A stretch of DNA of 64,000 nt. Origin: Myxococcota bacterium (GTDB taxonomy: Bacteria; Myxococcota_A; UBA9160; JAFDDA01). Below, in pieces: positions 13,323 to 33,206 of this stretch. The DNA lies in the NCBI GenBank assembly GCA_965228475.1, contig OZ245817.1:1376001-1440000 (forward strand), read 5' to 3'. Positions within the stretch are counted from its first letter, which is position 1, and every line of letters begins with the position of its first letter. Both the position numbers and the translations under genes were made by a program. The notes under the pieces are model-generated. The model did not search any database and was not told where the DNA came from. It was given only the letters and a program-made list of their open reading frames with translations.

Positions 13323-13326
13323 CGCC

Positions 13327-13452
13327 GGGCGGCTGGAGGGCGGGAGGGGCTCCGGCTCATGGCTCGCCCTGGCTACCTGCCGAGTCGCCTAGACCATCCG
13401 AGTGCGGGCTGCGCTTTACTTCCCCGGAGCCCCTCCCGCCCTCCAGCCGCCC
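13327..13452 (+). repeat. Structured dispersed element, copy 1
   Basis: Perfect 29-bp inverted repeat (13327-13355 / 13424-13452) enclosing TCATGGCTCGCCC-N36-GGGCTGCGCTTTACTTC. Confidence 0.9.
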
Positions 13453-13495
13453 TCCTCGGCAAGGCGTCACGGCCGGAACGAACCCGCTCACGCAA

Positions 13496-13530
13496 AACAG
13501 GGATCGAGCGCAAAGCGCTCGATCCCTGTT
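13496..13530. terminator. Probable bidirectional intrinsic terminator between convergent operons
   Basis: Perfect 16-bp stem aacagggatcgagcgc-aaa-gcgctcgatccctgtt, with A-rich left and T-rich right ends. Confidence 0.7.
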
Positions 13531-13571
13531 GTTTCACTCGCATGGCGGTGGTCCGCCGCGCCGCCTCGCAC

Positions 13572-13691
13572 CGCGGGTCGGGTCAGGGGGGCTTCAGCGA
13601 AGTAAAGCGCAGCCCGCACTCGGATGCGCCGGACGTCTCGGATGTTCGCCAGGGCGAGCCATGAGCGGAAGCCCCCCTGGCCCGACCCGCG
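13572..13691 (-). repeat. Structured dispersed element, copy 2
   Basis: 24-bp inverted repeat with 1 mismatch (13572-13595 / 13668-13691) enclosing the same core on the minus strand; 36-nt loop at 13616-13651. Confidence 0.9.
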
Positions 13692-13711
13692 CGCGCCGCC
13701 CCGACCTCGGA

Positions 13712-15091
13712 CTACTGCCCGAGCATCTCCTTCGCCTTCTTCCGCAGCTCCGGATCCGCCGCCATCGTCTTCAGTTTGGAGGCCATCTCCTGATCGTGGC
13801 GGTTCTGGATGAGGCGGTGGATGCGGGTGCCGAGGGTCTGGTGCTCGACGGCGGAGTTCTTGCGCAGGACGTTCGAGAGCACGACCGAGATGTAGTGGAG
13901 CGGCTGCTTCGAGTCCGTGGTCTCCACCACGGTCAGCGAGTTCATGAAGTTCTTGCGATTCCCCATGTACTTGCCGCACTCGAACCCCGGCTCCGGCTTG
14001 CAGCTGTAGAGCGAGCCGGACTTGAAGTAGAGGGCCGCGTCGGTGAGCGCGGGCGACGACGCGTAGCGGATGCGCCGGTCGGTCAGGTAGAGCAGGCGCT
14101 TGAGTTCGAGGCTCGACCACTCGTCGACGAGCTTGCCCTGCTCCATCAGCAGCGCGAAGCGGAGGAGCTCGCGCGGGGTGGCGATGCTGTTCGTGCCGGA
14201 GACCTTGTTCTTCCCGGTGCGGGTGAAGAAGCTGCCCTGGCGGAGCTTGCCCGTGTCGATGCCGTTGGCCTTGAGCGGGCCGCGGATCGCATCGAGGAAG
14301 ATCGTGCGCTTGCGCTTGGCCGGGGTCTCGCGGAAGAAGCGCGCGGCCTCCTCCGCCGTCGGCGGGTAGGCGTCTCCGTACTCCTTGAAGAGCATGACGT
14401 GCGCCATCAGCATGGCGGCGGCGGCGTTCGAGCTGCTCGAGCACATCCAGTCGAGATAGGTCCAGATGTTCGCGGTGTCGCCCTGGCGGATCGGGCGCTT
14501 CTCGAGCCGCTCCGCGCCCGGCTGCCAGAACGGAACGACGTGCTCGTCCTTGATGATGAACTCGTCGGCCGTGATCTGGACGTCGCGCAGGACTCGCTTG
14601 CGCGCCTCGATGTCGTCGGGGAAGCGGTCGGCCAGCGCCTGCATCCACGCCAGAGCGACGATGACCTTCCCGACCGAGCCCGGGTTCTGGATCTTGTCGC
14701 CGCCGACCTCGGCGTAGCTCGGGTTCGCGGGGTCCGTGATGTCGAGGACGGCGATGCCGTAGCGCGAGGCGTCGGCGTCGAGCAGCGCCTTCAGCTGCTT
14801 GGTGAATTCCGGGTCCGCGGCCGGAAGGGTGAAGTCCGGCCGGCTCGAGAGCTTCAGCCGGACGTCCTTGGTCGGCAGCAGCGCGCCGTCGAAGATGGCC
14901 CGGTTCTTCAGCAGGTGGTCCTGCGCCAACCGGTAGGCCTCGAGGCGGGTGATCCCGGTCTCGCGGTAGCCGTCGAGCGGATAGCCCGCGGCCGTACCCG
15001 CGATGGCAAGGGCGGCCACGCCGGCGAGTGCGCGGCGGCACCGGCCAGGGGCGAGGAAGGGCGAAGAGGAGAAGATCGAACGAGTCCGCAT
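13712..15091 (-). CDS. Secreted class A beta-lactamase-like SxxK serine hydrolase
   Basis: Signal-like RRALAGVAALAIAGTAAG; GSVGK (SxxK), SSN, FKSGS; CKPEPGFEC possible disulfide. Confidence 0.8.
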   Translation of the reverse strand: MRTRSIFSSSPFLAPGRCRRALAGVAALAIAGTAAGYPLDGYRETGITRLEAYRLAQDHLLKNRAIFDGALLPTKDVRLKLSSRPDFTLPAADPEFTKQLKALLDADASRYGIAVLDITDPANPSYAEVGGDKIQNPGSVGKVIVALAWMQALADRFPDDIEARKRVLRDVQITADEFIIKDEHVVPFWQPGAERLEKRPIRQGDTANIWTYLDWMCSSSSNAAAAMLMAHVMLFKEYGDAYPPTAEEAARFFRETPAKRKRTIFLDAIRGPLKANGIDTGKLRQGSFFTRTGKNKVSGTNSIATPRELLRFALLMEQGKLVDEWSSLELKRLLYLTDRRIRYASSPALTDAALYFKSGSLYSCKPEPGFECGKYMGNRKNFMNSLTVVETTDSKQPLHYISVVLSNVLRKNSAVEHQTLGTRIHRLIQNRHDQEMASKLKTMAADPELRKKAKEMLGQ

Positions 15092-15184
15092 GGGGCCTCC
15101 GCAGTGGGTCGGATGCTTTCGACGCAGGGGGAACGTACCAATTCAGCGGCGGGCGTCTTCGGCCGGGTTCCCAGGCTTCGAAGC

Positions 15185-18148
15185 TCAGTCCGCGGGGGCG
15201 CGGTCGAGCCGGATCTTGCGATTGCCCTTGCGGGCCAGCTCGGCGTCCAGGCCCGCCAGATAGCGGCTGCTCTTGGCGCCCTTGCTCTCCACGAAGGGCC
15301 GGATCTGGAGCAGGGTCAGGCGCCCGTCCTTGAAGGCGAACTCGACGTCGGCGGCCATGGGCTGGCCGTTCTCGTCCCGGAGCGAGGGAAAGCGCTTGGG
15401 GACGTCGCGCGCGAACCGGACGAGCTGGTCGATCTCGCCCTTCCGCAGCACGGCGGGCGTGCCGCTCGCGCGGACCCGGGTGACGCCGCCTTTCGGGTCG
15501 AGCACGGCCCGCCGCGGCGCCGTCGCCTGGGCGAGGAACTCGACCCGGCCGCTGCGGGTCTCGATGCGAAGCGACTCCGCCGCCTGCCCGTCGACGGCGC
15601 CGCCGACGCCCTCGTTCACGGCGACGGTGATGTAGTCCTGGCTGCCGCTGTCGACGTCGGCCGTGACCATCACGCCGGACTTCTCGGACGGAAAGCCGAG
15701 CTGGACGACGACGGCCGGGAAGACGTACTCGGGCTCTTCCATCTTGTCCTGCCGCCAGCCGTAGGCGCGCTCGGTGAAGGGCGAGGCCCAGACGAGGCCG
15801 ATCGATTCGAGGATGTTCTCGTAGCCGACCACGTTGGGGACCGTGAGGTTCAGGCCGGCCCCCGTGAAGCCCGGCAGATCCTCGACGTTCGTGTCGCTGC
15901 GGACGAACACGCCGTAGCTCCCGTCGCGTCCGAAGTGTTCTTCGAGCGTCTTGCGCAGCCCGTTGCGGAACTCGGGGCCGGGGTCGACGTCGTGGAGCCA
16001 GCCGCGCAGCCGCTTCAGGAACCTGCGCACCCGCTTGGCCTGGGCGGCCGGCTGGGCCTCGAGCTTGGCGATGGCCGCGTACTCGCCCTTCATCCAGTCG
16101 AAGACCGAGGGCCCGCCGGCCTCGAGGGGCTGGTCGAGGACCTTGCGGAAGGCGCCGAAGGGGATCACGAAGCCGTTCGGGACCTGATTCCCGAAGTGGT
16201 GCTTGAGCTCGCCGAGGTTCGCGCCCTTCGGGCCGGAGACGCGGCCCGAGTCCGCCGCGCGCAGGGCCGAGAGGGAGACGAAACCCGTCTGGGTGAGGTC
16301 GAGCTTCTCGAGGTCCGGGCGGATCACGAGGCCCGCGGAGGGCCCTTCCTTGCCGAAGATCTCGTTCCAGCGCGCCCCGTCGTCGGAGAAGTGGACCACG
16401 CCGCTCGGGCTCACGGCGAGCACGACCCGCTTGCCCATGCGCGTCCGCACTTCCTTCAGGTGCTCGTTGCCAATCACCACGTTCGGAATTCCGAGGTTGC
16501 GGGCCAGCAGCTGGACGTGCGAGAGCGAGCTGCCCTCGCCGCGGGTCAGGATGCCCGCGACGGGCGGAAGGTCCGAGATGGTCTCCGGCAGGAGGAAGAC
16601 GCCCTGGCGATCGAAGCCGCTCGCGCCGGCGTTCTCGGAGGGCTCGTAGAGGCGTCCGCGGACGAGCCCCGGGTTCAGCGCCCGGAGCCCCGCGCCGACG
16701 CGTTGACCGAAGAGTTCGTGCTCGATGCCCGCTTCGCGGTTGGCGTCCTTTACGAGGCTGTCGACGACGGCGCCGTAGAAGAGGAGCGGGCTGCCGCGCA
16801 GGCGGTCCTGGGCAAACAGATGGGTCTTCGGCTCGATGGCGGCGAAGCGCGCGGTCGCTTCGGAGAAGTGGAACTCGATCCAGCGCGAGCCCCACTCGGG
16901 CATGCGCGCGAGGAAGCGGAGTTCCTCGCGGTAGCGGTCGACGGTGGTGTCGTTGCTCTTGGTCAGCCGCTTGAGGCTCGCGACGACGCCCTCGCGGTGG
17001 CGCTCGGTGATGAAGCCCGCGCCGTAGAGCGCCGAGGTCCCCTCGCCGAGCCACGCGAGGCGTTCCTTGCGCGGAACGCCCGAGAGCCGCGCGATCAGGT
17101 CGTTGCCGACGGCGTAGGCCTCGCGCTCGAGCTCGAGGCTCGTGAGCAGGAGGGCCAGGGCCGCTTCGGGATCCTTCTCGTCGGGGAAGTGGCGGCGGAG
17201 CTGGGCCAGGGCCCGGCTCGCGATGCGCAGACGCTGGACGTCCTCGGCGCCGGGCGCCAGGAGCGCCGCGCCGTGGCGCAGGTTCTTCGCGAACTTCGCG
17301 TCCGAGGTGGCGGTGGCGAGGCGCTCGAGGGCGGCACTCGCCCGCGGCGCGTAGAGGGCGTCGATGTCGTCGGCGAGCTTCTGGTAGTCGGCGCGGGCCG
17401 CGGCCTTGCCCTTGGCCCGCGCATGGGCGCGCACGCGCTCCGCGTCGCCGGCATCGGGGAAGCCGTGGATCTTGGCGCGCAGGTTCTTGAAGCCCGGGTC
17501 CTTGTCCGCCACGACGACGGCCAGCTGCCGGACCGCCTGGGCCGAGACCGCGTCGCCGAGCAGGGGCAGGGCGCGGGCGGTCTCGCGGATCAGCAGGAAG
17601 CGGGCCGGATCGCGCCAGGCCGGGTCGGCCAGCATGGCGAGCAGGACTTCGCGGGCCGTCGCCTCTTCGTCCTCGGCCTGGAGCGCGCCGCGGTAGTTGC
17701 GCGCGCCGCGGAAGATCCAGCCCGTATCCGCAGCCCGCAGGAACTTCTCGACGATGACCTGGGAGAGCTGGTCGACGTCCGGATCCGAGCCGACGAAATC
17801 CTCGGGTTCGAGTTCGGCGACGACCGTTCCGACGTAGTAGCCGTCGGCCCGCATCGCCTTCACGCGGTCGTTCCACTCGCCGTGCTGGATGCCGCCGCCC
17901 CGCTCGCCGCCGCAGGGATACGGTCTGGGCGGGTGGATCGTGCCATCGGCGCAGAACCAGCGAATGCGCTTGAAGGGCCCCTTCGGGGAGCGCTTCATCT
18001 CCTTCACCCAGCCCGCGTAGCGCTCGGCGTTCTTGAAGCCCTTGCGCTTGGCGGCGGCCTCGGCGGAAGGGGCGGGGAAGAGCAGGGCCGGAGCCAGCAG
18101 GAGAGCCAGCACCAGCTTCGGGACCGACCGGCGGACGGGGCGCGACAT
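15185..18148 (-). CDS. Secreted PEP-utiliser/PPDK-family dikinase (phospho-His domain followed by C-terminal ATP-grasp)
   Basis: ATG at 18148 gives signal peptide MSRPVRRSVPKLVLALLLAPALLFPAPSAEA. AGILTRGEGSSLSHVQLLARNLGIP is the phospho-His domain. GPKGANLGEL, VPNGFVIP, VRSDTNVED, GAGL and DVEFA...LLQIRP mark the nucleotide-binding domain. Confidence 0.85.
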   Translation of the reverse strand: MSRPVRRSVPKLVLALLLAPALLFPAPSAEAAAKRKGFKNAERYAGWVKEMKRSPKGPFKRIRWFCADGTIHPPRPYPCGGERGGGIQHGEWNDRVKAMRADGYYVGTVVAELEPEDFVGSDPDVDQLSQVIVEKFLRAADTGWIFRGARNYRGALQAEDEEATAREVLLAMLADPAWRDPARFLLIRETARALPLLGDAVSAQAVRQLAVVVADKDPGFKNLRAKIHGFPDAGDAERVRAHARAKGKAAARADYQKLADDIDALYAPRASAALERLATATSDAKFAKNLRHGAALLAPGAEDVQRLRIASRALAQLRRHFPDEKDPEAALALLLTSLELEREAYAVGNDLIARLSGVPRKERLAWLGEGTSALYGAGFITERHREGVVASLKRLTKSNDTTVDRYREELRFLARMPEWGSRWIEFHFSEATARFAAIEPKTHLFAQDRLRGSPLLFYGAVVDSLVKDANREAGIEHELFGQRVGAGLRALNPGLVRGRLYEPSENAGASGFDRQGVFLLPETISDLPPVAGILTRGEGSSLSHVQLLARNLGIPNVVIGNEHLKEVRTRMGKRVVLAVSPSGVVHFSDDGARWNEIFGKEGPSAGLVIRPDLEKLDLTQTGFVSLSALRAADSGRVSGPKGANLGELKHHFGNQVPNGFVIPFGAFRKVLDQPLEAGGPSVFDWMKGEYAAIAKLEAQPAAQAKRVRRFLKRLRGWLHDVDPGPEFRNGLRKTLEEHFGRDGSYGVFVRSDTNVEDLPGFTGAGLNLTVPNVVGYENILESIGLVWASPFTERAYGWRQDKMEEPEYVFPAVVVQLGFPSEKSGVMVTADVDSGSQDYITVAVNEGVGGAVDGQAAESLRIETRSGRVEFLAQATAPRRAVLDPKGGVTRVRASGTPAVLRKGEIDQLVRFARDVPKRFPSLRDENGQPMAADVEFAFKDGRLTLLQIRPFVESKGAKSSRYLAGLDAELARKGNRKIRLDRAPAD

Positions 18149-18264
18149 CAGGCGCAGCTTACCCGATAACCCGCCGTTTCGGGTGGCTTTCCCCTGGGCG
18201 CTCGGGCCCGCAGGGCGGGCGGGCTGCGGCACAGGGTAAGGGGTGGGACGCCCTGCGGGGTGAT

Positions 18265-21200
18265 ATGGTGCGTGCCGTCGCCATGTTGCAGCGCCTGGGG
18301 TTCGATCGGCACGAGAGCCGCGTGCTCGTGTGGGGAGCGATCACGCTCTTCCTCACGGGGTGGGCAGACGTTTCTCTGAAGAACGTCTCGGAAGCCTACT
18401 TCGTGAACAGCGTCGGACCCGAGCGGCTTCCCCTCGTGTTCCTCGCCAGTTCGGCCCTCCTGGTCGGGACGACGTGGGCTCTGGGCATCCTGATGGCTCG
18501 GAGCCAGCGGCTGCGTCTCCTGCCGCGCCTGCTCGGTGTGCTGGCCGTCGCGATCCTTCCCCTGTGGTGGCTGATCCTGAACCACGAGGGTGGAACGGAC
18601 CGCGAGATCAAGAGCGCCTACGGCCTGCTCCTGATCGCCTCGAAGCAGGTCCAGGCGCTGGCGCTCCTGTCGTTCTGGGCCGCCATCAACGATCTGGTGA
18701 ACGCCCGCCAGGCCAAGCGGGTGTTCGCTCCGCTGATGGCCGGCTGGACGCTGGGAACGATCCTCGGAAGCTTCGCATCGGATCCGCTCGCGGGCTGGCT
18801 GGGCGTTCCGGCGCTGGTCCCCGTCTCATCGGCAATGCTGATCCTCGCGGGCGTCGCGACCTATCCGCTCCGCCGCGGGCTGCCTACCCGGCTCCACGTC
18901 GGCACGCGACGACGCCTCCTCGACCTCGTGCGACCCAAGGAAGAGCGCTCGGTGTTCGGCGCGGGCGCGACGGGGTCGCCGGAGGCCGGAAGCGCCGAGG
19001 CCCCGGCGAGCGTGCGCGCGCTCTGGCGGGAGAGTGCCCTGTTCCGGCTGCTCTTCGTCACGGTGCTGCTGTCCGGGATGCTCGGCCCGATGCTCTATTT
19101 CCAGTTCCAGTGGGTCGCGGATGCGGCGACACCGGAAGGCGACGAGGGCCTGGAAGGCCTCCTCCATCTCTACTCGCTCTTCCGCGGCTGGGTGAACGTC
19201 GCCATCCTCGTCGCTCAGCTCACGGTCACCTCGACGCTCTACCGTCGTTTCGGAATCCCGCTGTCCGTCCTGATCTCGCCGCTCACCTATCTCGCCGGCT
19301 TCTTCGGGCTCTCCCGGAGCTTCGCGCTGCCGATGGGCATCGGTGCGATGTCGCTGACGAAGCTCCAGGACAACGCCGTCTTCGATCCGGCCTCCCGGGT
19401 GCTCTACAACCTCTTCCCGGACCGCCACCGGGCCCGTGCCGGGTCCTTCCTCGACGGCCCCGTGAAGCGGGGCGCCGGGGCGCTCGGCAACCTCGTGGTG
19501 ATCGTCGCACTCGAGGCCGCGTCCGTTGCCTACGTCGGCGTGGCCGGCATCGGCCTCGCGCTGATCTGGCTGCTCGCGGCGGTCGTGCTCTGGCAGACCT
19601 ATCCGCGCCTGCTGCTCGCGGCCGCGTCGAACCGCCGGACGTCGGGCGGCGAGTGGGAAGAGGGCATGCTCGACCCCTCGACGGTGCGCGCCCTGAACCC
19701 GCATCTGCTCGACCCCGACCCCGGGCGCTGTGCCCTGGCCATCGGCCTGCTCGAGGAGGCGCGCCCCGAGCTGGCGATCCCCGCGCTCGTGCACGCCTAC
19801 GGAGGGGCCCACGGGGCAACGCGCCCCCTCCTCCTCACGGCGCTCGAGGATGCGCTCGACAAGACGGTCACGACGCCGGTGCGCGACGCCGCGGCGGCCG
19901 CCGAGCTCGACCGGATTCTCGCCGAGACGCCGGATCTCCCGGCCCTCGACCGCTCCCGGCTCGTGCAGTGCTACGGCCGCGTGAGGCCGGAGGACGACCG
20001 CTCGCCGCTGCTCACCCACGCCCTCCACCACGAGGTCGCGAGCGTCCGCCTCGCCGCCGCGGGTGCCCTCGATCACGACGACCTCGACGACCGCCTGCGC
20101 GAGGCCGCGGCCAGCAGCGACCTCGCCGAACGCACCATCGCCCGCCGCGAGCTGCGCGCCGCGCTCCTGTGCGACGCCGAGGATCCGGCCTGGGAACAGC
20201 GGCTCGCGATGCTCGTCGCCATGCTCGACGACCCGGAGGAGCGCCGCCCCGCAGCGGAGGCCCTGGCCGACGTCGCGCGCCGCCACGGCGAGCGCGTCGT
20301 GCCGATCACCGAGGCCGTGCTCGAGCGGCGACACGAGACCGACGTCGCGACGCGCCGCGCGCTGCTGCGCTTCGCCGGCCACGCGGGCTGCGTCGAGCAC
20401 GCGGGCTGGCTGGTCGACCACCTCGCGTCGGACGACGAGTCCGAGGCCGATGCCGCCCGCGAAGGTCTGGTCGCCATGGGGGCCGGCATCACCGACATCC
20501 TGTTGAAGGAGGCGTCCCACGGCCGGCGCAGCAAGCGCGATGCGATCCTGCCGCTCCTGCGCGACCTCCACGTCGACCAGGACGAACTCTGGGAACTCTA
20601 CGAGCGCGAGCTCGCCGGCATCCGCAAGCTCATCGTCCAGCACCACGTGATGCGCGCGACGCCGGGCCTCGAGCTGCTCGAGCAGCGGCTCGACGAGCGC
20701 ATCGACGAAGGCCTGCACACGGCGCTCCTGCTGCTCGCCGGCCTGCGGGACCGGGACGAGTACGAGAGCCTCGCCGAGAGCCTCCCCGGCACGCCGAGCG
20801 GCCGGCGCCGGGCGACCCTGGTCGAGGTGCTCGAGGAGATCGCGACCGCCCGCGAAAAGACCGAGCTCCTGCCGTTGTTGGACGAGGATCTCGACAAGCG
20901 CTGCGCCCGGGCCGCCGGCGCGCTCGGCATCCTCGTCCCGAGCGACGAAGAGGTCCTCCAGCAGACCATGAAGAGCTCCGACGAGCTGACCCGCGTGCTG
21001 GTTGCCGGTTGCCTGCGGACGCTCGGCATGGGGCCCGTGCCCGGTGCGGCGCCCGGCGCAGTTCCATTGGCTCCCTCCGCCGATCTGGAGGAAACTGCGG
21101 ACGTGCTGAGCCCCACGGAGATCGCGCTGCAGCTCAAGGGTCTGCCCATGTTCGATGGGCTCACGACCCGGCAGCTCATGGACCTCGCCCAGGTGGTGAG

Positions 21201-21534: not shown

Positions 21535-21569
21535 GGCCCGAAGCGCGTCTCGCAAACCGTGGCCATCGC

Positions 21570-24624: not shown

Positions 24625-24627
24625 CGC

Positions 24628-25419
24628 CTAGCGGTCTCGGAAGTCGGGTTTGCGCTTCTCGAGGAAGGCGCGCAGGCCCTCCTGCGCGTCCTCGGTCTGG
24701 GAGGCGGCCGCCATGACCTCGCCGGCGTGGTCGTAGGCGGCGCGGGTGTCGAGGTCGATCTGGCGATAGAAGGCGCGTTTTCCTGTCGCCTTCGCGAGCC
24801 GGCTGCCGCGGGTGGCCCGGGCGAGCAGGGCGCGCGTCTCCCGCGCCACCTCGCCGTCCTCCACCACGCGGTTCACGAGGCCCCAGGCGTGGGCGGTCTC
24901 GGCGTCGATCGGGTCGCCGGTGAGGAGCATCTCGAGGGCGTGCTTGCGCCCGACGGCCCGGGCGAGGGCGACGCCGGGCGTGGTGCAGAACCAGCCGCCG
25001 CGGCCGCCCGGCACCGCGAAGCGCGAACTCCGGCCGCAGACGGCGAGGTCGCAGGTCGAGACGAGCTGGCAGCCGGCGGCGGTGGCGAGGCCTTCGACCT
25101 GGGCGATCACGGGTTGGGGCATCGACTGCACGAGCTGCATCATCTCGGCGCAGACGTCGAGCAGGCGCTGCATCTCGGGGAGCTTCCGCCCGTCCATGTC
25201 CGCGAAGTCGTGGCCGGCCGAGAACACCGGGCCTTCGGCAGCGACGACGAGGCCGCGCGCATCGCCCCCGGCGACTTCGCGCAGGGCCGCGAGGATCTCC
25301 CGGATCACGCTCTCGGCCAGGGCGTTGCGTCGCTCGGGGTTCGCCAGGGTGAGGACGGCGAAGTCGTCCTCGCGGGTCAGGCGGATGCTCTCGAAGCTCA
25401 TGCCGGTCTCCTCGCTCAT
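24628..25419 (-). CDS. Enoyl-CoA hydratase/isomerase family protein
   Basis: RNAL, FSAGHD, ATAAGCQLV..CDL, EMLLTG. Confidence 0.9.
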   Translation of the reverse strand: MSEETGMSFESIRLTREDDFAVLTLANPERRNALAESVIREILAALREVAGGDARGLVVAAEGPVFSAGHDFADMDGRKLPEMQRLLDVCAEMMQLVQSMPQPVIAQVEGLATAAGCQLVSTCDLAVCGRSSRFAVPGGRGGWFCTTPGVALARAVGRKHALEMLLTGDPIDAETAHAWGLVNRVVEDGEVARETRALLARATRGSRLAKATGKRAFYRQIDLDTRAAYDHAGEVMAAASQTEDAQEGLRAFLEKRKPDFRDR

Positions 25420-25444
25420 GCCGGTGTCTTCGGGTTCGCCGGGG

Positions 25445-26941: not shown

Positions 26942-27100
26942 GCCAGCCCCTCCGGCGCTCTCGAGACCGGAGGATCCTATCCCAGCCGGCCCAGCTGGCC
27001 GCCCGAAAGGCGAAGGCCCCGCGGGGAGATCCGCCTCCAGGGGTTGACGGGACGCGCCGTCTGGCGCACACCTACTCCCCTTCCCAACGGGGTGTTTTTC

Positions 27101-27427
27101 ATGGGCTTTCGAATTCGCAAGGGCGACCTGGTGGCCGTCACCACGGGCGCGGACAAGGGCAAGCAGGGGCGCGTGATCGCGGTCGATCCGGAGCGCGGCG
27201 TGCGCGTCGAACAGGTCCGCCTGCAGAAGCGCCACCTCAAGGCCGGCCGCGCGGCCGCGAAGACCGGCGGCATCGTCGAGCAGGAAGGCTACATCCACGC
27301 CTCGAACGTCATGCTCGTCGATCCCTCGACGAACCAGCCGAGCCGCGTGCGCATGGAAACGCGCGACGGCCAGCGCGTGCGCGTGTTCGCCAAGAGCGGC
27401 GAGCCGGTGCCCGGGGCGGGGAGCTAG
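27101..27427 (+). CDS. rplX: 50S ribosomal protein L24
   Basis: [21 protein letters not shown] (KOW), [15 protein letters not shown]. Confidence 0.93.
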
Positions 27428-27429
27428 TC

Positions 27430-27600
27430 ATGGCGAAGAAGGGCAAGCGCGAGAAGATCAAGCTCGAGTCCTCGGCGGGGACCGGCCACTTCTACACGAC
27501 CATCAAGAACAAGCAGAACACGCCCGGCAAGGTCGAGCTGAAGAAGTACGATCCCGTCGTGCGCAAGCACGTCGCCTACAAAGAAACCAAGCTCAAGTAG
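27430..27600 (+). CDS. rpmG: 50S ribosomal protein L33 (Cys-free type)
   Basis: Manual translation: [56 protein letters not shown] (56 aa, shorter than any ORF in the track). Confidence 0.95.
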
Positions 27601-27685
27601 CACCCGCGAGCTTTCACCGGAGCGCGCGACGGCGGCGCTTCGACCGAACGAAACCCTGCTCCAGTAGCGCCCCGAAGGAAGACGA

Positions 27686-28036
27686 ATGGCCTGGGTCATC
27701 ACGAAGCTTTGCATTGATTGCGTGGACCAGAGCTGCGTCGAGGTTTGCCCCGTCGACTGCATCTACGAGTACACCGGTGACGACAAGGGGAGCTTCCCGA
27801 ACCAGCTCTTCATCGACCCGGAAGAGTGCATCAACTGCGGCGTGTGCGAGCCCGAGTGCCCGTGGGAAGCGATCTTCGAGGACGAGCAGGTGCCGGACGT
27901 GTTCCAGGCGGACATCCAGGTGAACGCCGGCATCGCCGAGCAGGCGGATGACCGGGCGGTTCCCGAGAAGGAAGACAAGCCGCGGCCGGCGCCGGAGGAG
28001 ATCGAGAAGAACAAGGCGAAGTGGAACTACGCCTAG
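27686..28036 (+). CDS. Dicluster (7Fe/8Fe) ferredoxin, FdxA-like
   Basis: [18 protein letters not shown] and [12 protein letters not shown]. Confidence 0.92.
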
Positions 28037-28054
28037 GTTCTTGATCGTTGCGCC

Positions 28055-28178
28055 GGTGGCCGGAGCCCGAGCGGGCTTTCGGCTCATGGCTCGCCCTGTC
28101 GAACATCCGAATCGTTTGCGATATCCGAGTGCGGGCTGCGCTTTACTTCGCCGAAAGCCCCCTCGGGCTCCGGCCACC
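28055..28178 (+). repeat. Structured dispersed element, copy 3
   Basis: 29-bp inverted repeat with 1 mismatch (28055-28083 / 28150-28178), same core, 36-nt loop at 28097-28132. Confidence 0.9.
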
Positions 28179-28180
28179 TT

Positions 28181-29017
28181 CTAGCCGGCTCGGGAGCCGG
28201 CTTCGTCGAAGGCTTGGGCCATCACGTCGATTGGTGCCGGCCTTTTGGCGAAGAGGGTGAGCTGTTCGGCTCCCTGGTAGATCAGCATCCATTTTCCGGA
28301 GAGGGTTCTCGCGCCGTGGGCTTCGGCTTCGCGGAGGAGGCGGGTGCGTTCGGGTTGGTAGACGGCGTCCATGACCAGGGCGCCGGGGGGGACGGCGCTT
28401 CCGGGGACGGGGGTTTCGTCGCTGCCGAGGCCGACGCTGGTGGTGTTGACGAGGAGTTCGGGGGCGAGGTCCGGGAGATCCGCGAGGCTTCCCGAGGCGC
28501 CGGCGCCGAGGGCGCGGACGATGGCCTCGGCCTTGGCGACGGTGCGGTTCAGCACCGTGACCCGGGCGCCGCGCTCGAGCAGGCCGAAGGCGACGGCCCG
28601 GGCGGTTCCGCCGCCGCCGAGGACCACGCAGCGCGCGCCTTCGAGCTCCATCTCCCCTTGCTCTTCCAGGGCCCGCACCGCGCCGAGCCAGTCCGTGTTG
28701 CAGGCTTCCAGCCGGTCGCCCCGGCGCGTGACGGTGTTGATGGCGCCGATGCGCTCCGCCGTCCCGTCGATCGCGTCCACGAAGGCGCCGATGGTCTCCT
28801 TGTGCGGGATCGAGACGGCGAGCTGGGCGACGCGGTGCTCGCGCGCCGAAGCCATGAAGCGCGCGAGCCCCTCCGGCTCGACGTCGAAGACGGCGTAGTC
28901 GGCGGCGATGCCGAGGGCGCGGTAGGCGGCGCCGTGCATCGCCGGCGAGCGCGTGTGGCCGGCCGGGTGCAGGACGATCCCGCAGCGCGCGGTTCCTTTC
29001 GGGAGGTCAGGGAACAA
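28181..29017 (-). CDS. aroE: Shikimate dehydrogenase
   Basis: HTRSPAMH, SIPHKE, GAINT, NTDWLG, GGGGTARA, NRT, NTTSVG, MLIYQG. Confidence 0.92.
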   Translation of the reverse strand: MFPDLPKGTARCGIVLHPAGHTRSPAMHGAAYRALGIAADYAVFDVEPEGLARFMASAREHRVAQLAVSIPHKETIGAFVDAIDGTAERIGAINTVTRRGDRLEACNTDWLGAVRALEEQGEMELEGARCVVLGGGGTARAVAFGLLERGARVTVLNRTVAKAEAIVRALGAGASGSLADLPDLAPELLVNTTSVGLGSDETPVPGSAVPPGALVMDAVYQPERTRLLREAEAHGARTLSGKWMLIYQGAEQLTLFAKRPAPIDVMAQAFDEAGSRAG

Positions 29018-30005
29018 TCAGGACCTTGGCTTGGGTGCTCGGCTGGGAGAGCGTCTCGAACATGGCGGGCACGGCGTCGAAGTCGATGCGGTCGGTGATC
29101 ATCGGGCTCGGGTCGATCCGGCCCTGGTCGAGCATCGCCACGGTGTATTGGAAGTCCGAGAGTTCGTAGGCGAGGACGAAGTGGACCGTCGCCTCCTTGA
29201 GGATGCCTGCGAGCGGGAAGATCGTGTCCGGGTGATTGCAGACGCCCACGACGACCACGCGCCCGCGGAAGGCGGCCGAGCCGATCGCCTGGCCGATCAG
29301 GCCGGGGACGCCGGTCGCTTCGAACACCACATCGATGCCGTCCGGCGCGTGCTTCTGGCAGGCGGGCAGGACGCCCGAGGGATCGACCGCCGCCGTCGCA
29401 CCGAGCTGCTCGGCCACGGCGCGGCGGCCTTCGCTCTTCTCCGACACCAGGATCGTGCGCACGCCGAGATGCCGGAGCCAGAGCGTCGTGGCGAGCCCGA
29501 CCGGGCCGGCGCCCTGGACGAGGACCGATTCGTTCGGGGCCACCCGGGAGACGTTCACCGCGTGCAGTCCCACCGCGAGGGGCTCGACCAGCGCGCCGAG
29601 TTCCGAGTCGACCCCCGCCGGCAGCTTCACGCAGTTGTGCGGCGAGACGGCGACGTACTCCGCGAGGGCCCCGGGCGCCGGGCCGAGGCCGATGGCCCGG
29701 CTGCCGTTGGTGCAGAAGGCCGAGAGCCCGGTCACGCACTTGGGGCAGGTTCCGCAGGAGAGCGTGGGGATCGCGCAGAAGCGGTCGCCCGCGCGGTGCT
29801 CCCCGCTCGATTCCATCAGCTCGCCGGCGAACTCGTGGCCCATGATCGCCCCGGGCGGCAGCAGGCCGGACTGATAGAGGTGGAGGTCCGAACCGCAGAT
29901 CCCGCAGCCCTGCACGCGCAGGACGAGCTCTCCCGGGCGCGGAGCCGGGTCCGGAGCCTCCTCGACGGTGAGCTGCTTCGGGCCCTTCGAAACGACGGCT
30001 TTCAT
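29007..30005 (-). CDS. Zn-dependent alcohol dehydrogenase (MDR family)
   Basis: CGICGSDLH, GHE, structural Zn CGTCPKC..C, GAGPVG; ATG at 30005. Confidence 0.9.
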   Translation of the reverse strand: MKAVVSKGPKQLTVEEAPDPAPRPGELVLRVQGCGICGSDLHLYQSGLLPPGAIMGHEFAGELMESSGEHRAGDRFCAIPTLSCGTCPKCVTGLSAFCTNGSRAIGLGPAPGALAEYVAVSPHNCVKLPAGVDSELGALVEPLAVGLHAVNVSRVAPNESVLVQGAGPVGLATTLWLRHLGVRTILVSEKSEGRRAVAEQLGATAAVDPSGVLPACQKHAPDGIDVVFEATGVPGLIGQAIGSAAFRGRVVVVGVCNHPDTIFPLAGILKEATVHFVLAYELSDFQYTVAMLDQGRIDPSPMITDRIDFDAVPAMFETLSQPSTQAKVLIVP

Positions 30006-30104
30006 GGCGATCCTTCCCCGTGCGGAGCGGTGCGGAGCGATTCGATTCGCGGCCGCCAGCATATCCGATTGCGCCCTCGGGCCCGCCGCATCGCCCGCAG
30101 CGGC

Positions 30105-30905
30105 CTAGACCTCGCGCGAGCGGGCGAGGGCGGCCTTCAGGTCTTCCCAGACCTTGCGCCGGTTCTCCGGGGTGTACTGCCGGAGCAGGAACGCCGGGTG
30201 GAACGTCGGCATGAGCGGCGTGCCGCGGTAGTCCTGCCAGGTGCCGCGCAGCTTCGTGATGGCGACGTCGCGCCCGAGCAGGGTGCTCGTCGCGGGCTTG
30301 CCCAGCGAGACGATCACCTTCGGGCGGATCGCGGCGATCTGGCCGTCGAGGAAGCCGCGGCAGGTCGCGACCTCGTCGGCCAGGGGCGTGCGGTTCCCGG
30401 GCGGCCGACACTTCACGATGTTGCAGATGTAGACCGAGCTGCGCGGGATCTCGAGGCCCTTCTCGATCATCGACGTCAGGAGCTCGCCCGCCCGCCCGCA
30501 GAAGGGGATGCCGCGCTCGTCTTCGTTCTGGCCCGGGCCTTCGCCGATGAACAGCAGGTCCGCATCCGGGTTGCCGTCGCCGAAGACGATCTGCGTCCGT
30601 CCCTCGTGCAGGCGGCAGCGCGTGCAGTCGCCAATCTCGGCCCGCACGGCCTCGAGGCTCGCGGATCCGCCGCCGCTCGGAGCCGCCGGCGGCGACGGGG
30701 CGGGGGGCGCTTGGGTCGTAGCCTCCGCCCGCGGCTCGGCGGCCGGCGCTGCGGCACGAAGGGGCGGCTCGGCGGTGACTCCGGCGGCGGCCTGCTCCGC
30801 GTCGGTCTCCCAGACCTCGACGCCCTCCTCGGCCCACTCGGCGAGGGTCGCACGCGCGGCGCCGAGGGCGTCTCGCAGCTCCGGGTCCTGGGGGGTGGGC
30901 GGCAT
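30105..30905 (-). CDS. Uracil-DNA glycosylase, family 4
   Basis: CTRCRL, GEGPG, KCRPPGNR, TFHPAFLLR; ATG at 30905. Confidence 0.92.
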   Translation of the reverse strand: MPPTPQDPELRDALGAARATLAEWAEEGVEVWETDAEQAAAGVTAEPPLRAAAPAAEPRAEATTQAPPAPSPPAAPSGGGSASLEAVRAEIGDCTRCRLHEGRTQIVFGDGNPDADLLFIGEGPGQNEDERGIPFCGRAGELLTSMIEKGLEIPRSSVYICNIVKCRPPGNRTPLADEVATCRGFLDGQIAAIRPKVIVSLGKPATSTLLGRDVAITKLRGTWQDYRGTPLMPTFHPAFLLRQYTPENRRKVWEDLKAALARSREV

Positions 30906-30919
30906 CGGGCGGAACGCCC

Positions 30920-33040
30920 CTAGCTCGCCGGGGGCGCGAAGGCGCGCTCGAGCATGCCGAGCTGGGCGCTGTCCGGAAGCGCCGGCGCTCGGGAGGCCGA
31001 GGTGTCCTTCGGCTTGCCCGTCCCCGGCTCGATCGTCCCGTGGCGCTGGATCTCGATCTTGTCGAGGACCTCGAACTCGAAGCCCGGGTCGTTCGCGTCG
31101 TCGTGGCAATCGCCGCAGACCTGGAGGATGGCGCAGGAGTCGCACTTGTCGCCGAGGGAGACGATGGTGCCGATCTTCTCCGCGCCCTCCGCCACGTGCT
31201 CGCTGCCCGGGCCGTGGCAGGATTCGCAGCCGACGCGCCCGAGATCCGCATGGGCGGCGAGGGTCGCGCCCTTCGGGAAGCCTCCGGTCTTGCCGAAGCC
31301 CGTCGTGTGGCAGGTGAGGCACTCGGCGTTGCCCGCCTCGCCCTTGGCTTCCAGGGTCTCCCCGGCCTTCGCATGGCCTCCGCTGGCCCAGGTCGCGTAC
31401 TCGGAGGGGTGGCAGCTCTGGCACGCATCCGAACCGACGTAGTCCGCGTCCACCGGCAGGATCGCGGCGCGGCGGGCGCCGAGCTCTTCGATGCGCGCGA
31501 GCTTCTGGTCGAGGGAGAGGCCGAGCACGTCGCGGTTGGCGGCGTGGGAGATCTTCGGGTGGAACGTCGCGAAGTCGAAGCCGAGAGAGTGCTTCTTGTC
31601 GTGGCAGGTCACGCACATCGGTTCGTAGCCGGCCTTCGTGTACTCCGGGGAGAGGTGCGGGCCGCCGCGGCCGTGGCAGGACTCGCAGCCGACGTCCTCG
31701 AAGCGCGCCGAGCCGTGGCCCTCGAAGCTGAAACCGCCCTTTTCCTCGTAGCCGACGACGTGGCAGCCGACGCACTCGGGGTTCCGGGATTCGCCGTGCT
31801 TCACGAGCGTGTCGTAGGCGTAGGCGTGCTTGGTGAACTCCCAGGTCGTGGTCTGCTCCTCGTGGCAGACCGCGCAGAAGTCGTTGCCGCTGTAGCCCGT
31901 GCGGTGGAGCAGCATCGGGACGGGTGCGCCGCCTTCCTTCGCGAGGCGCATCTGCCAGAGCGGCGGGTCGAGCTGGTCGTCCCAGCCCGAGCCGCGGTGC
32001 GCGATGCGCCCCTCGGCGTCGACGAGGACGAGGTCCGGGACGCCGCCGCTCACGCCGAAGGCGGTGCGCAGGGCTCCGCCCGGGTCCATCAGCACGGGGA
32101 AGAAGTCGAGCCCGTCTTCTTCGAGCTTCTCGCGCACGGCGTAGGCGCGGTCGAGGATCGAGACGCCGACGAGAACGGGCCGCTGCTCCTCCGGCAGCTT
32201 CGGCAGGGCCTCCTTCAGGAAGCGCATGGCGTGGTGGCAGTGCGGGCAGGTGTGCAGGAAGAAGATCACCATCACGGCCTGGCCGCGGTGGGCCGAGAGG
32301 CTGAAGGCCTTGCCGGCGAGGTCCGTGCCCGTGAGCTCGGGCGCCTTCGGGCGCTCGCCGAGGAGCGGCTGGGTCGGCGCGGGCGCGGCGGGCAACCGCA
32401 GCATGTCCCGGACCATGGCGTTGATGGCGTCGCCGGTGACGTCGCTGTCTTCCTGCCAGCCCGCGGTGCGCGTCACGTAACCTTCGTCGTCGACCGAAGC
32501 CAGCAGGACGGGGACCGGCGCGCGAAGCAGGCTCGCGATGCGGGCCGTCGAATCGTCGAGGATCGGGAAGTCGAGGCCCTTCTTCTCGGCGAACTCCTGG
32601 GCGACCGCGCGGCGCGAGCCGGTGGCGATGCCCAGGATCTCGAAGTTGTTTTTGGCCCGGAACTCGGAGACTTCGGCGAGGGCTTCGGCGGCCTTCCCGG
32701 CCACGCCGATCTCCGGGTTGAACATGAACAGCAGGTAGCGCTGGCCGAGCAGGTCCGACGCCTGGAGCTTCCGGTCGTCGAGGGTGATCCCGCCGAGGGC
32801 CGGCAGCGGCCTTTCGTGGGAGTGCCGCTTCGCCTTCTTCGAGTGCTCCGGCTTCTCTCGCGCGGCAGCGGCCTCGCCCGGTGCCGAAGCCTGGGCGACC
32901 TCCGTCACCCCCTCCGAAGCCGGCTGCGAAGCCTCCGCAGCCCCGCTCGTCTCTTCCCCCCCACCGCAGCCAACCGCCGCCAGCAGGACCCCCAACACCA
33001 CGAAATTTCGAAGATTCAGCACGGGGCCCAGCATAGCCAA
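30920..33040 (-). CDS. Lipoprotein with two redoxin (thioredoxin-fold) domains and an octaheme (2 x c554-like) cytochrome c
   Basis: Lipobox LAAVGC; second redoxin has HTCPHC. Eight CxxCH motifs downstream: CAVCH, CVGCH, CESCH, CVTCH, CQSCH, CLTCH, CESCH, CGDCH. Start could be 33034. Confidence 0.85.
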   Translation of the reverse strand: MAMLGPVLNLRNFVVLGVLLAAVGCGGGEETSGAAEASQPASEGVTEVAQASAPGEAAAAREKPEHSKKAKRHSHERPLPALGGITLDDRKLQASDLLGQRYLLFMFNPEIGVAGKAAEALAEVSEFRAKNNFEILGIATGSRRAVAQEFAEKKGLDFPILDDSTARIASLLRAPVPVLLASVDDEGYVTRTAGWQEDSDVTGDAINAMVRDMLRLPAAPAPTQPLLGERPKAPELTGTDLAGKAFSLSAHRGQAVMVIFFLHTCPHCHHAMRFLKEALPKLPEEQRPVLVGVSILDRAYAVREKLEEDGLDFFPVLMDPGGALRTAFGVSGGVPDLVLVDAEGRIAHRGSGWDDQLDPPLWQMRLAKEGGAPVPMLLHRTGYSGNDFCAVCHEEQTTTWEFTKHAYAYDTLVKHGESRNPECVGCHVVGYEEKGGFSFEGHGSARFEDVGCESCHGRGGPHLSPEYTKAGYEPMCVTCHDKKHSLGFDFATFHPKISHAANRDVLGLSLDQKLARIEELGARRAAILPVDADYVGSDACQSCHPSEYATWASGGHAKAGETLEAKGEAGNAECLTCHTTGFGKTGGFPKGATLAAHADLGRVGCESCHGPGSEHVAEGAEKIGTIVSLGDKCDSCAILQVCGDCHDDANDPGFEFEVLDKIEIQRHGTIEPGTGKPKDTSASRAPALPDSAQLGMLERAFAPPAS

Positions 33041-33078
33041 GGAGCGGGAGAGTGACGGCGGCTGCGTTCAAGCAAGGA

Positions 33079-33200
33079 GGGCGTGAGGGCCGGGGTCGCC
33101 TTCAGCGAAGTAAAGCGCAGCCCGGAGCAACCAAGTGGAGTAAAGCAGCCCGTTCGCCCGGGCGAGCCATGAGCGGAAGGCGACCCCGGCCCTCACGCCC
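33079..33200 (-). repeat. Structured dispersed element, copy 4
   Basis: Perfect 25-bp inverted repeat (33079-33103 / 33176-33200), same core on the minus strand, 36-nt loop at 33124-33159. Confidence 0.9.
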
Positions 33201-33206
33201 GGCGCT

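What the first reader, a model, noticed from the sequence alone, without database searches (positions are those of the whole stretch)
13327..33200. Unannotated structured element family: copy-specific long stems, invariant core, exactly 36-nt variable loop
Seen: four copies (13327-13452 +, 13572-13691 -, 28055-28178 +, 33079-33200 -). Each has a 24-29 bp near-perfect outer stem whose sequence differs between copies while pairing is kept. The stem encloses TCATGGCTC-GCCC-[36 nt]-GGGC-TGCGCTTTACTTC. Loops: TGGCTACCTGCCGAGTCGCCTAGACCATCCGAGTGC, TGGCGAACATCCGAGACGTCCGGCGCATCCGAGTGC, TGTCGAACATCCGAATCGTTTGCGATATCCGAGTGC, GGGCGAACGGGCTGCTTTACTCCACTTGGTTGCTCC. Every copy starts within about 4-20 nt after a stop codon and lies in the same orientation as that gene. 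In REP/MITE elements the termini are usually the conserved part; here the arms vary and the asymmetric internal loop is invariant. Inference: a protein-recognised ssRNA/ssDNA structure, such as a 3'-UTR RNA motif, ribozyme-like or guide-carrying RNA, or a non-autonomous mobile hairpin. No cognate transposase or RT is in this window.
Basis: seen in the sequence. Interest (0 to 1): 0.85.

Follow-up and report, generated by a model that had tools for sequence, protein, structure and literature searches.

The report
Hairpin repeat family behind stop codons
The four structures are real copies of a small hairpin-shaped DNA repeat that sits just behind genes in one order of Myxococcota-like bacteria and in some marine Gammaproteobacteria; it has an almost unchanging asymmetric centre between fast-changing matched arms, and I found no record of it.

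Summary
All four copies are where stated: 25-30 bp copy-specific stems around exact TCATGGCTC and TGCGCTTTACTTC. "Exactly 36 nt" does not hold: the variable part is 35-38 nt in this genome and 7 to about 125 nt elsewhere. The genome has 16 full copies and one truncated copy. A covariance model finds 33 copies in a congeneric genome and copies in 11 of 23 other genomes of the order. It finds none in 127 genomes from the rest of the phylum sample. Three marine Gammaproteobacteria genomes have 3-74 copies. Rfam has no match, and no Y1/RAYT or reverse-transcriptase gene is in this genome. Copies lie a median 12 nt behind a stop codon and mostly point the same way as that gene (44 versus 8). Seven of 16 sites are shared with the congener. 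There the arms are unrelated but still paired, and the core is a different co-varying variant. One related genome carries copies nested inside each other. Arm mismatches are A:C rather than G:U on the gene's strand, which argues against simple selection on a sense-strand RNA helix. My best reading is a REP/MITE-like palindromic repeat with a protein-recognised core. The mechanism is unknown. It is a new variant of a known kind.

The parts
13327..13452 (+). Copy 1. 5' arm 13327-13355, motif A (TCATGGCTC) 13357-13365, short helix GCCC 13366-13369, variable part 13370-13405 (36 nt), GGGC 13406-13409, motif B (TGCGCTTTACTTC) 13410-13422, 3' arm to 13452.
   Evidence: MFE -92.8 kcal/mol, z -8.5. 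It follows the TAG stop of a 334-aa beta-lactamase-like gene (window 12318-13322 +) by 1 nt.
13572..13691 (-). Copy 2, convergent with copy 1. On the minus strand, motif A plus GCCC lies at 13664-13652 and GGGC plus motif B at 13615-13599.
   Evidence: z -6.1. It lies 20 nt behind the TAG stop of a 459-aa gene (13712-15091 -).
13494..13535 (.). A separate 14-bp perfect hairpin between copies 1 and 2, with an A-run on one side and a T-rich run on the other. By eye it looks like a two-way intrinsic terminator. If so, both copies lie upstream of the terminator, inside the 3' untranslated regions.
   Evidence: Read directly from the sequence. The consensus scan did not call it, so this is inspection only.
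28055..28178 (+). Copy 3. Motif A plus GCCC at 28084-28096; GGGC plus motif B at 28133-28149.
   Evidence: z -7.8. It lies 15 nt behind the TAG stop of a 116-aa ferredoxin gene (27686-28036 +). A convergent 278-aa frame (28181-29017 -) ends 2 nt beyond the 3' arm.
33079..33200 (-). Copy 4. On the minus strand, motif A plus GCCC lies at 33172-33160 and GGGC plus motif B at 33123-33107.
   Evidence: z -9.1. It lies 3 nt behind the TAG stop of a 170-aa DnaJ-domain gene (33207-33719 -).

Best explanation
The four structures belong to a family of gene-less palindromic intergenic DNA repeats, 80-165 bp long. They are REP/MITE-like in kind but built the other way round. A 22-30 nt asymmetric centre (motif A ..ATGGCTC and motif B TGCGCTTTAYTTC, on one strand) is the constrained, sequence-specifically recognised part. 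The 25-30 bp arms are free to drift as long as they stay complementary. Shown: the family is dispersed and multi-copy, patchy across genomes, present in two phyla, able to nest inside itself, and gained or lost between congeneric genomes. Inferred: it spreads or spread as DNA with the help of an unidentified trans-acting protein that reads the centre. The arms are kept matched by a DNA-level process in which one arm templates the other (hairpin-templated correction or extension), not by slow RNA-level compensation. Copies survive almost only just behind stop codons. There they are transcribed passively as part of the 3' untranslated region, and the polarity of the centre relative to transcription is under selection.
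For: Copy numbers by covariance model: 16 in this genome plus one truncated copy, 33 in the congener, 0 in a same-family genome that is 81% complete, and 4, 20 and 74 in three other genomes. In the phylum sample 12 of 151 genomes have hits, all in one order; 11 of 23 other order members are positive and 0 of 127 genomes outside the order. In a Gammaproteobacteria sample 2 of 151 have hits. One related MAG shows a recent burst, with 34 near-identical loci in which one element is nested, inverted, in the centre of another. Sites are gained and lost: 7 of 16 sites are shared with the congener, and three orthologous sites in the congener are empty and lack any long hairpin. At shared sites the arms are no more alike than random pairs yet stay paired, and one copy is flipped. 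Arm pairing: all 26 outer pairs change on both sides, 87% of cells are paired, 0 of 500 shuffles reach the covariation score, and only 2 G:U cells occur. In this genome the arms have 422 Watson-Crick pairs against 4 G:T and 5 A:C. In the burst genome the palindrome runs 3-12 bp beyond the family-conserved part into copy-specific sequence. Orientation and position: a gene end lies only on the 5' side in sense for 44 copies and only on the 3' side in antisense for 8 (p = 4e-7); the median gap from stop to stem is 12 nt. The two centre variants co-vary (TC with C 36, CC with C 1, GA or AA with T 15, GA with C 3) and occur in both phyla.
Against: No mobilising enzyme was found. PF01797 (Y1/RAYT) is absent from this complete genome and from three other element-bearing genomes, and where it is present no copy lies within 1.5 kb of it. 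No long version with a gene between motifs A and B exists in the genomes checked. No target-site duplication was seen (by eye). In this genome the centre is intact in all 16 full copies (one has a 1-nt insertion in motif B), while arms and flanks are saturated with change. Six of the 7 sites shared with the congener also keep their orientation. Both features are easier to explain by a host-level function at each site than by selfish spread. The congeners carry different centre variants at the same sites, which needs in-place replacement or concerted evolution; I did not demonstrate either. The orientation counts rest on my own crude frame calling (GC3-based), and related genomes are not independent.
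Confidence: 0.45

Rival explanations
1. A host-selected 3'-UTR RNA element. The upstream gene's transcript runs into the element and the long hairpin forms in the mRNA. The asymmetric internal loop (about 4 nt against 7 nt once GGC pairs with GCU) is then a binding or cleavage site for a conserved RNA-binding protein or RNase. This would set mRNA 3'-end processing, stability or translation termination, as RNase III or RNase E sites in structured intergenic hairpins do.
For: Copies lie a median 12 nt behind stop codons and point the same way as the gene, 44 versus 8. In at least two places the copy lies between the stop codon and a canonical-looking terminator hairpin. Seven of 16 sites are kept in the congener, behind rho, ftsZ, dksA, a sigma factor and a PP2C gene among others, with orientation kept in 6 of 7. 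The centre is intact in all 16 full copies while the arms are saturated. The nested two-way form sits mostly between convergent genes (17 of 33) and gives each transcript one sense-oriented centre.
Against: The helix has almost no G:U. Transition mismatches are mainly A:C on the sense strand, which breaks the sense RNA helix but would be wobble pairs on the other strand: 129 versus 24 in four genomes (58 of the 129 at three recurrent positions) and 81 versus 18 in metagenome copies. Some copies carry a terminator-like hairpin with a T-run in their centre, which would stop transcription before the 3' arm. One copy lies behind a terminator-like hairpin. Sites behind rho and ftsZ are not kept in 5 other genomes of the order, with 0 hits in 10 loci. 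Twelve of the congener's 33 copies lack an exact motif B. A change of centre variant across all copies of a genome is hard to reconcile with a fixed host partner.
Confidence: 0.25
2. A strand-specific single-stranded-DNA site. One DNA strand, the one antisense to the upstream gene, folds into the hairpin. The unpaired centre is then read by a recombinase or nuclease, in the way integron attC sites or IS200/IS605 ends are recognised as folded single strands with unpaired bases marking the active strand.
For: Wobble-compatible mismatches lie on the antisense strand. The arms are strictly Watson-Crick. Position directly behind the stop codon with a fixed polarity relative to the gene is also how attC sites sit (recalled knowledge). 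Centres are flipped, exchanged or nested at the tip of the hairpin.
Against: No Y1 HUH gene is in this genome. I did not search for integron integrases or other recombinases. Copies are dispersed singly or in inverted pairs, not in cassette arrays. Inverted pairs at one locus rule out a simple link to replication direction. The asymmetry is absent within this genus (8 G:U versus 9 A:C for the two congeners together). Other causes are possible, such as G:T-specific repair in sense-strand hairpins or selection to weaken the mRNA hairpin.
Confidence: 0.15
3. A lineage-specific non-canonical transcription terminator family, like the TRIT motif of Mycobacterium: a conserved GC-rich hairpin without a U-tract that ends transcription, possibly with a factor that binds the conserved part.
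For: Gene-end location with a narrow distance to the stop codon. Many copies exactly fill the gap between convergent genes: 13 of 27 parsed copies in one Gammaproteobacteria genome and 17 of 33 in the nested form. High-GC hosts. TRIT is likewise a sequence-conserved palindromic motif tightly placed at stop codons (PMC3152330, passages read).
Against: Several copies are followed or preceded by an ordinary terminator-like hairpin. Only 16 of several thousand genes here carry a copy. There is no T-run after the 3' arm. A pure terminator needs neither the asymmetric centre nor a polarity.
Confidence: 0.1

Closest known systems
REP / BIME / REPIN elements with RAYT (TnpA-REP) transposases
   Same: Both are gene-less GC-rich palindromic repeats in many copies. 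Both lie in extragenic regions, mainly downstream of genes and between convergent or same-direction genes (PMC3733652, abstract and passages read). Both often occur as inverted pairs that can fold into larger hairpins, and both are thought to be transcribed.
   Different: REPs are 20-40 bp with 6-13 bp stems, a GTAG or CGTC tag and mostly short loops (PMC3733652). Here the unit is 80-165 bp with 25-30 bp arms, and I saw no conserved terminal tag. Conservation is inverted: centre fixed, arms free. No Y1/RAYT gene is in this genome or in three other carrier genomes, and none lies next to a copy where checked.
Transcribed hairpin MITEs of Proteobacteria (ERIC/IRU, Correia/NEMIS elements); comparison from recalled knowledge
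   Same: Similar size (about 100-150 bp). Both fold into long hairpins within mRNAs and are inserted close to gene ends. Orientation-dependent effects on transcript fate have been reported for ERIC (recalled, not read here).
   Different: Those families have conserved terminal inverted repeats and a TA target duplication (recalled). Here only the innermost roughly 7 bp of the arms are family-conserved (for example CTCCGGC with GCCGGAG in the congener). The outer arms are copy-specific and no duplication was seen.
TRIT, the Mycobacterium-specific terminator motif (Gardner et al. 2011, PMC3152330)
   Same: Both are sequence- and structure-conserved hairpin families in high-GC bacteria. Both are tightly placed relative to stop codons, and for both a factor binding the conserved part has been proposed (passages read).
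   Different: TRIT is described as palindromic and mostly bidirectional, with 147 copies, centred about 8 nt inside the coding end, and restricted to Mycobacterium. This family has an asymmetric centre with a polarity, variable arms, far fewer copies per genome, and lies behind the stop codon.
Integron attC sites (recalled knowledge)
   Same: Both are imperfect palindromes of 57-141 bp directly behind a gene's stop codon with a fixed polarity. In both, structure is conserved more than sequence, unpaired bases mark one strand, and the apical part is variable.
   Different: attC sites keep their conserved boxes at the outer ends and occur in cassette arrays next to an integrase. Here the conserved part is internal and copies are dispersed. 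I saw no attC-type outer boxes. The integrase was not searched for.
Other 'invariant core, variable matched arms' hairpin repeats noted earlier in this scan (Omnitrophota, gut Clostridia, Patescibacteria; AI notes, unchecked)
   Same: The same architecture and behaviour were reported: a near-invariant asymmetric centre, fast-drifting but complementary arms, and centres flipped, swapped or nested at the same site.
   Different: The sequences and host groups are unrelated; no sequence look-alike of this element is in the scan index. Those notes are not independent evidence.

Membership tests
Any Rfam 15 RNA family | Match to a curated covariance model at its gathering score | tested here: not met
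   0 matches in the 64-kb window at gathering scores. In E-value mode on 13200-13800 only miRNA-precursor models matched, at 30 bits or less against cut-offs of 55-137, driven by the long stem alone.
REP/REPIN-RAYT | Short (20-40 bp) palindrome with a conserved GTAG or CGTC terminal tag | tested here: not met
   Units are 80-165 bp with 25-30 bp arms. GTAG next to the stem occurs in only some copies and coincides with the TAG stop codon. TAG is the stop of about half of the long frames in this genome (914 of 1814).
REP/REPIN-RAYT | A cognate Y1 (PF01797) RAYT gene in the genome, typically flanked by the repeats | tested here: not met
   0 hits in this complete genome and in G006, G041 and G042. 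Hits occur in G001 (1), G043 (1), G044 (3), G017 (3), G132 (11) and G021 (12). No element lies within 1.5 kb of the G001 and G043 genes, and no motif B lies near the three G044 genes.
REP/REPIN-RAYT | Extragenic, mostly downstream of genes and between convergent or same-direction genes | tested here: met
   59 of 70 parsed copies in three genomes have a sense gene end within -7 to 73 nt of the stem. 29 of 33 nested copies in G044 abut at least one gene end.
MITE (non-autonomous DDE-type element) | Family-conserved terminal inverted repeats, target-site duplication, and a related autonomous IS | tested here: not met
   The outer arm ends are copy-specific. No direct repeat flanks the young copies in G044, by eye. 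Every exact motif B in G000, G001, G042, G043 and G044 lies in a short element or a degraded one, so no long version was found. The duplication test is weak because the true ends are not defined.
Intrinsic (Rho-independent) terminator | GC-rich hairpin followed directly by a U/T-run | tested here: not met
   No T-run follows the 3' arms of the four window copies, and the scan calls none there. A few copies elsewhere carry such a hairpin inside their centre.
Integron attC | Conserved outer R boxes, cassette array, nearby integron integrase | tested here: inconclusive
   I saw no conserved outer boxes in the alignment of 29 copies, where only the centre is invariant. Copies are dispersed, not arrayed. 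The integrase was not searched for.
Retron / other RT-dependent non-coding element | A reverse transcriptase gene in the genome or next to the element | tested here: not met
   PF00078 gives 0 hits in G000, G001, G043 and G044, and one hit in G041 about 2.7 Mb from its four copies.

The most novel reading that the evidence does not exclude
This may be one family of a wider, undescribed class of bacterial elements. In that class the unit that is recognised, flipped, exchanged and inserted is the asymmetric tip of a hairpin. The long arms would be a self-correcting palindrome that regrows from local sequence. An unknown, structure-specific enzyme would act on one folded strand at gene ends. This reading would account for several things together: cross-phylum identity of a 22-nt centre, different centre variants at the same sites in sister species, elements nested in each other's tips, copy-specific palindrome extensions in young copies, and a strand-biased mismatch spectrum. 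It would also tie together similar families that this scan noted in Omnitrophota, Clostridia and Patescibacteria.
Probability: 0.2. Interest if true: 0.85.

Novelty: new variant of a known kind. Interest (0 to 1): 0.58.

Why it matters
Small palindromic repeats at gene ends are common, but how they persist and what they do is unsettled even for the best-known REP family. This family is an unusually clean case. Its 22-nt centre is identical in two phyla, while the arms are saturated with change yet strictly paired. It has a measurable polarity relative to the upstream gene. Orthologous sites lie behind core genes such as rho, ftsZ and dksA. A two-way nested form occurs between convergent genes. 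The two co-varying centre variants give a ready specificity test for whatever protein reads the centre. If a partner is found, it could reveal either a new way of moving DNA through hairpin tips or a new 3'-end control element. If not, it remains a well-characterised selfish repeat that breaks short-read assemblies and should be annotated.

Tried and rejected
- Stop-codon preference. Most copies follow TAG, but TAG ends 914 of 1814 long frames in this genome, so I dropped it.
- boxA mimic. Motif B recalled the Nus-factor boxA, but this genome's own rRNA leader carries a different boxA-like sequence, so the idea is weak.
- 16S rRNA resemblance. Motif A resembles the 5' end of 16S, and the complement of motif B matches 9 nt of this genome's 16S. 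One is in sense and the other in antisense, and the host's own match is no better, so I treat it as coincidence.
- Small ORF starting at the ATG in motif A. The variable spacing breaks the frame.
- Ribozyme or other known RNA. None was found by Rfam.
- Phage origin. The 7 pattern hits in viral contigs all lack stems. There was no blastn match in plasmids.
- Arms as pre-existing target hairpins. In G043 the arms of different copies are homologous to each other, and three empty orthologous sites have no long hairpin. The idea is rejected for the bulk of the arm and left open for the outermost few bp.
- Retro-mobility as the cause of the G-to-A bias. The burst genomes have no RT gene.
- The gene between the two inverted pairs in G041 looks like a glutathione-transferase-type enzyme, judged by eye from its translation; it is not a transposase.
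- Sequencing runs. No RNA holder was listed. Laying four DNA-type runs only showed assembly contigs ending at the shared centres and cross-mapping of other copies; it gave no strain variant of the arms.
- Literature. Searches for the motif strings found 0 papers. 'Repetitive extragenic palindromic' with 'Myxococcus' found 4 unrelated papers. One search failed on a term format and was not repeated.
- Earlier scan index. It holds no sequence look-alike.

Full report
**Observation.** TCATGGCTCGCCC and GGGCTGCGCTTTACTTC each occur four times in the window without mismatch. For the longer motif only 0.13 matches are expected even with three mismatches allowed. Each copy folds into one long hairpin, at -76 to -93 kcal/mol with z-scores of -6.1 to -9.1. 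The outer stem has 25-30 Watson-Crick pairs whose sequence differs between copies. All four copies follow a same-strand gene, with 1, 20, 15 and 3 nt between stop codon and stem. Between copies 1 and 2 lies a separate 14-bp hairpin with an A-run and a T-rich run. By eye it looks like a two-way terminator, so both copies would sit inside 3' untranslated regions. The consensus scan did not call it.

**Genome-wide picture.**
- The genome is one contig of 5.0 Mb with 70.5% G+C. It holds 15 copies with both motifs exact.
- A covariance model (R1), built from 29 copies, finds a 16th copy with one extra T in motif B.
- A truncated 17th copy has only the 5' arm and motif A.
- The variable part is 35-38 nt, with 36 nt in 9 of the 15 exact copies. 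The 'exactly 36 nt' rule therefore fails.
- Three loci carry convergent pairs.
- Rfam has no family for the element.

**Other genomes.** The exact pattern was absent from 40 relatives, but the model finds diverged copies.
- Copy numbers: 33 in the congeneric genome G001, 0 in a same-family genome that is 81% complete, 4 in another genome of the order, and 20 and 74 in two Gammaproteobacteria MAGs.
- In a sample of 151 genomes of the phylum, 12 have hits and all belong to one order. That is 11 of 23 other order members and 0 of 127 genomes outside the order.
- In 151 genomes of the Gammaproteobacteria class, 2 have hits.
- A public-genome scan found 34 loci in one further MAG labelled a delta proteobacterium, 5 more true-looking loci, and 9 chance matches without stems.
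Of 131 unique matches, 55 had at least 14 paired arm positions by my ungapped test. Fifty-four had fewer than 8, and I did not examine those further.
- Viral contigs gave only stemless chance hits, and plasmids gave none.

**Anatomy across the family.**
- The inner part ranges from 7 nt (GCTGCGC in the 81-nt short form of G043) to about 125 nt.
- In some copies the inner part is a terminator-like hairpin with a T-run.
- Invariant across the 29 aligned copies are ATGGCTC and CTGCGCTTTA.TTC.
- Two centre variants co-vary: TCAT with ..TAC.. and GAAT or AAAT with ..TAT... Both occur within the order and in Gammaproteobacteria.
- Among metagenome copies the combinations were TC+C 36, CC+C 1, GA+T 13, AA+T 2 and GA+C 3.
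- In the MAG with the recent burst, the unit is a composite of about 230 nt: one element sits, inverted, in the centre of another. The outer palindrome runs 3-12 bp beyond the family-conserved part into copy-specific sequence.

**Arms.** All 26 outer pairs show double-sided changes and 87% of cells are paired. No shuffle or slid register comes near that, and only two cells are G:U. In this genome the arms hold 422 Watson-Crick pairs, 4 G:T and 5 A:C. In G043 the arms of different copies are recognisably homologous. The arm is therefore part of the repeated unit and not a pre-existing target hairpin.

Oriented by motif A to motif B, transition mismatches are mostly A:C rather than G:U:

| Source | A:C | G:U |
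|---|---|---|
| G043 | 41 | 7 |
| G044 (58 of the 79 at three recurrent positions) | 79 | 9 |
| Metagenome copies | 81 | 18 |
| This genome (G000) | 5 | 1 |
| Congener (G001) | 4 | 7 |

Wobble-compatible pairs thus lie on the strand opposite to the upstream gene. I cannot explain this with confidence. Possible causes are a functional antisense-strand fold, G:T-specific repair in sense-strand DNA hairpins, or selection to weaken the mRNA hairpin. A reverse-transcription origin is unsupported, because no RT gene is in G000, G001, G043 or G044.

**Position and polarity.** I called frames with a GC3-based method of my own and counted copies by which side has a gene end. 'Unparsed' copies are those for which my ungapped test found no stem.

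| Genome | Sense gene end on 5' side only | Antisense gene end on 3' side only | Between convergent ends | Neither | Unparsed |
|---|---|---|---|---|---|
| G000 | 14 | 1 | 1 | 0 | 0 |
| G001 | 20 | 4 | 1 | 2 | 6 |
| G043 | 10 | 3 | 13 | 1 | 4 |

Together this is 44 against 8 (p = 4e-7). The median distance from stop to stem is 12 nt. One of the 14 G000 cases rests on a doubtful 51-codon frame. The nested two-way composites show no bias (7 against 5), and 17 of 33 lie between convergent genes. The upstream genes here are varied: HtrA-type protease, two beta-lactamase-like proteins, ferredoxin, DnaJ-domain protein, PP2C phosphatase, a sigma-70 factor, DksA, FtsZ, a desaturase, Rho, a Fis-type HTH protein and a SnoaL-like protein.

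**Comparison with the congener.**
- Seven of the 16 sites are shared with G001. Both flanks match, and the translated flank matches are 62-92% identical. These sites lie behind PP2C and the sigma factor (a pair), DksA, FtsZ, Rho, the Fis-type gene and a carboxylase subunit.
- At these sites the arms are no more alike than random pairs yet remain paired.
- Six sites keep their orientation and one is flipped.
- Every G000 copy has the first centre variant and every exact G001 copy the second.
- Three other orthologous sites in G001 are empty and show no long hairpin.
- Behind rho and ftsZ in five other carrier genomes of the order there is no copy, with 0 hits in 10 loci, some cut at contig ends.

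**Partner search.** PF01797 (Y1/RAYT) is absent from this genome and from G006, G041 and G042. Where it is present, it is not next to a copy. No long version with a gene between the two motifs was found. In G041 the only four copies form two inverted pairs around a gene that looks like a glutathione-transferase-type enzyme, judged by eye from its translation.

**Reading.** The family behaves like dispersed, occasionally proliferating DNA. It shows patchy and cross-phylum distribution, a burst, nesting, gain and loss, and a truncated copy. Its arms are kept matched by something faster and stricter than RNA-level compensation. Three further features argue that more than neutral selfish decay is at work: the intact centres at old sites, the polarity relative to the gene, and the two co-varying centre types. 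Either a host-level role of the transcribed or folded element exists, or the centres are replaced in place. I rank the readings as follows:
- REP/MITE-like repeat with a protein-recognised centre: 0.45.
- Selected 3'-UTR RNA element: 0.25.
- Strand-specific single-stranded-DNA site: 0.15.
- TRIT-like terminator family: 0.10.

These readings are not mutually exclusive.

**Known relatives and novelty.** The kind of element is known: palindromic intergenic repeats at gene ends (PMC3733652, abstract and passages; TRIT in PMC3152330, passages). The family fails the defining tests for REP-RAYT, classical MITEs, intrinsic terminators, RT-dependent elements and every Rfam family. I found no paper holding its motifs, though my literature searches were few. 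Earlier unchecked notes of this scan describe the same architecture (invariant asymmetric centre; drifting matched arms; flipped, swapped or nested centres) in Omnitrophota, Clostridia and Patescibacteria. That makes a broader undescribed class worth testing. I rate it a new variant of a known kind, with interest 0.58.

Noticed in passing
window 13494-13535: A 14-bp perfect hairpin with an A-run on one side and a T-rich run on the other lies between the two convergent copies. It looks like a two-way intrinsic terminator, but the consensus scan did not call it.
   Followed up: partly
G000:C1 about 3992570-3992620 (-), outside the window: A truncated copy behind the TGA stop of a gene I take, by eye, for an acyl-CoA-synthetase type. 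The 5' arm, motif A and GCCC are intact, then unrelated sequence follows, with no motif B and no 3' arm.
   Followed up: partly
5' arms of the copies, e.g. window 13327-13355; G000 copy at 4018252 (-): In this genome the 5' arm is G-rich with several runs of 3-6 G, and the 3' arm is C-rich. By eye several arms could form G-quadruplexes, and the 3' arm resembles a C-rich Rho-loading tract. The Gammaproteobacteria copies lack this skew.
   Followed up: no
3' flanks of copies in G000 and G001 (e.g. window 13453-13459; L084, L076): Several copies in both congeners are followed directly by TCCTCGG or a close variant. Others are followed by CGATCG. The family therefore extends a few bases beyond the stem and has subfamilies.
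   Followed up: partly
G000:C1:1368015 (about 8 kb before the window start): A 16S rRNA gene starts here. Its leader holds a boxA-like GGTCTTTGAAAA. Motif A resembles the 16S 5' end, and the complement of motif B matches 9 nt inside this 16S. I judge this a coincidence.
   Followed up: partly
L076 (G001 orthologue of the copy behind ftsZ) versus G000 3125518: In G001 a terminator-like hairpin with a T-run sits inside the element's centre. In G000 a terminator-like hairpin lies between ftsZ's stop codon and the element. The relative order of terminator and element is therefore not fixed.
   Followed up: partly
L070/L074 (G041:C1:907588-909228): This complete chromosome has only four copies, arranged as two inverted pairs on both sides of one gene that looks like a glutathione-transferase type.
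   Followed up: partly
window 13280-33260 in public runs X1-X3: Short-read assembly contigs of the same organism end inside the shared centres of copies 2 and 3 (at about 13596-13619 and 28126-28152). The repeat therefore fragments k-mer assemblies.
   Followed up: no
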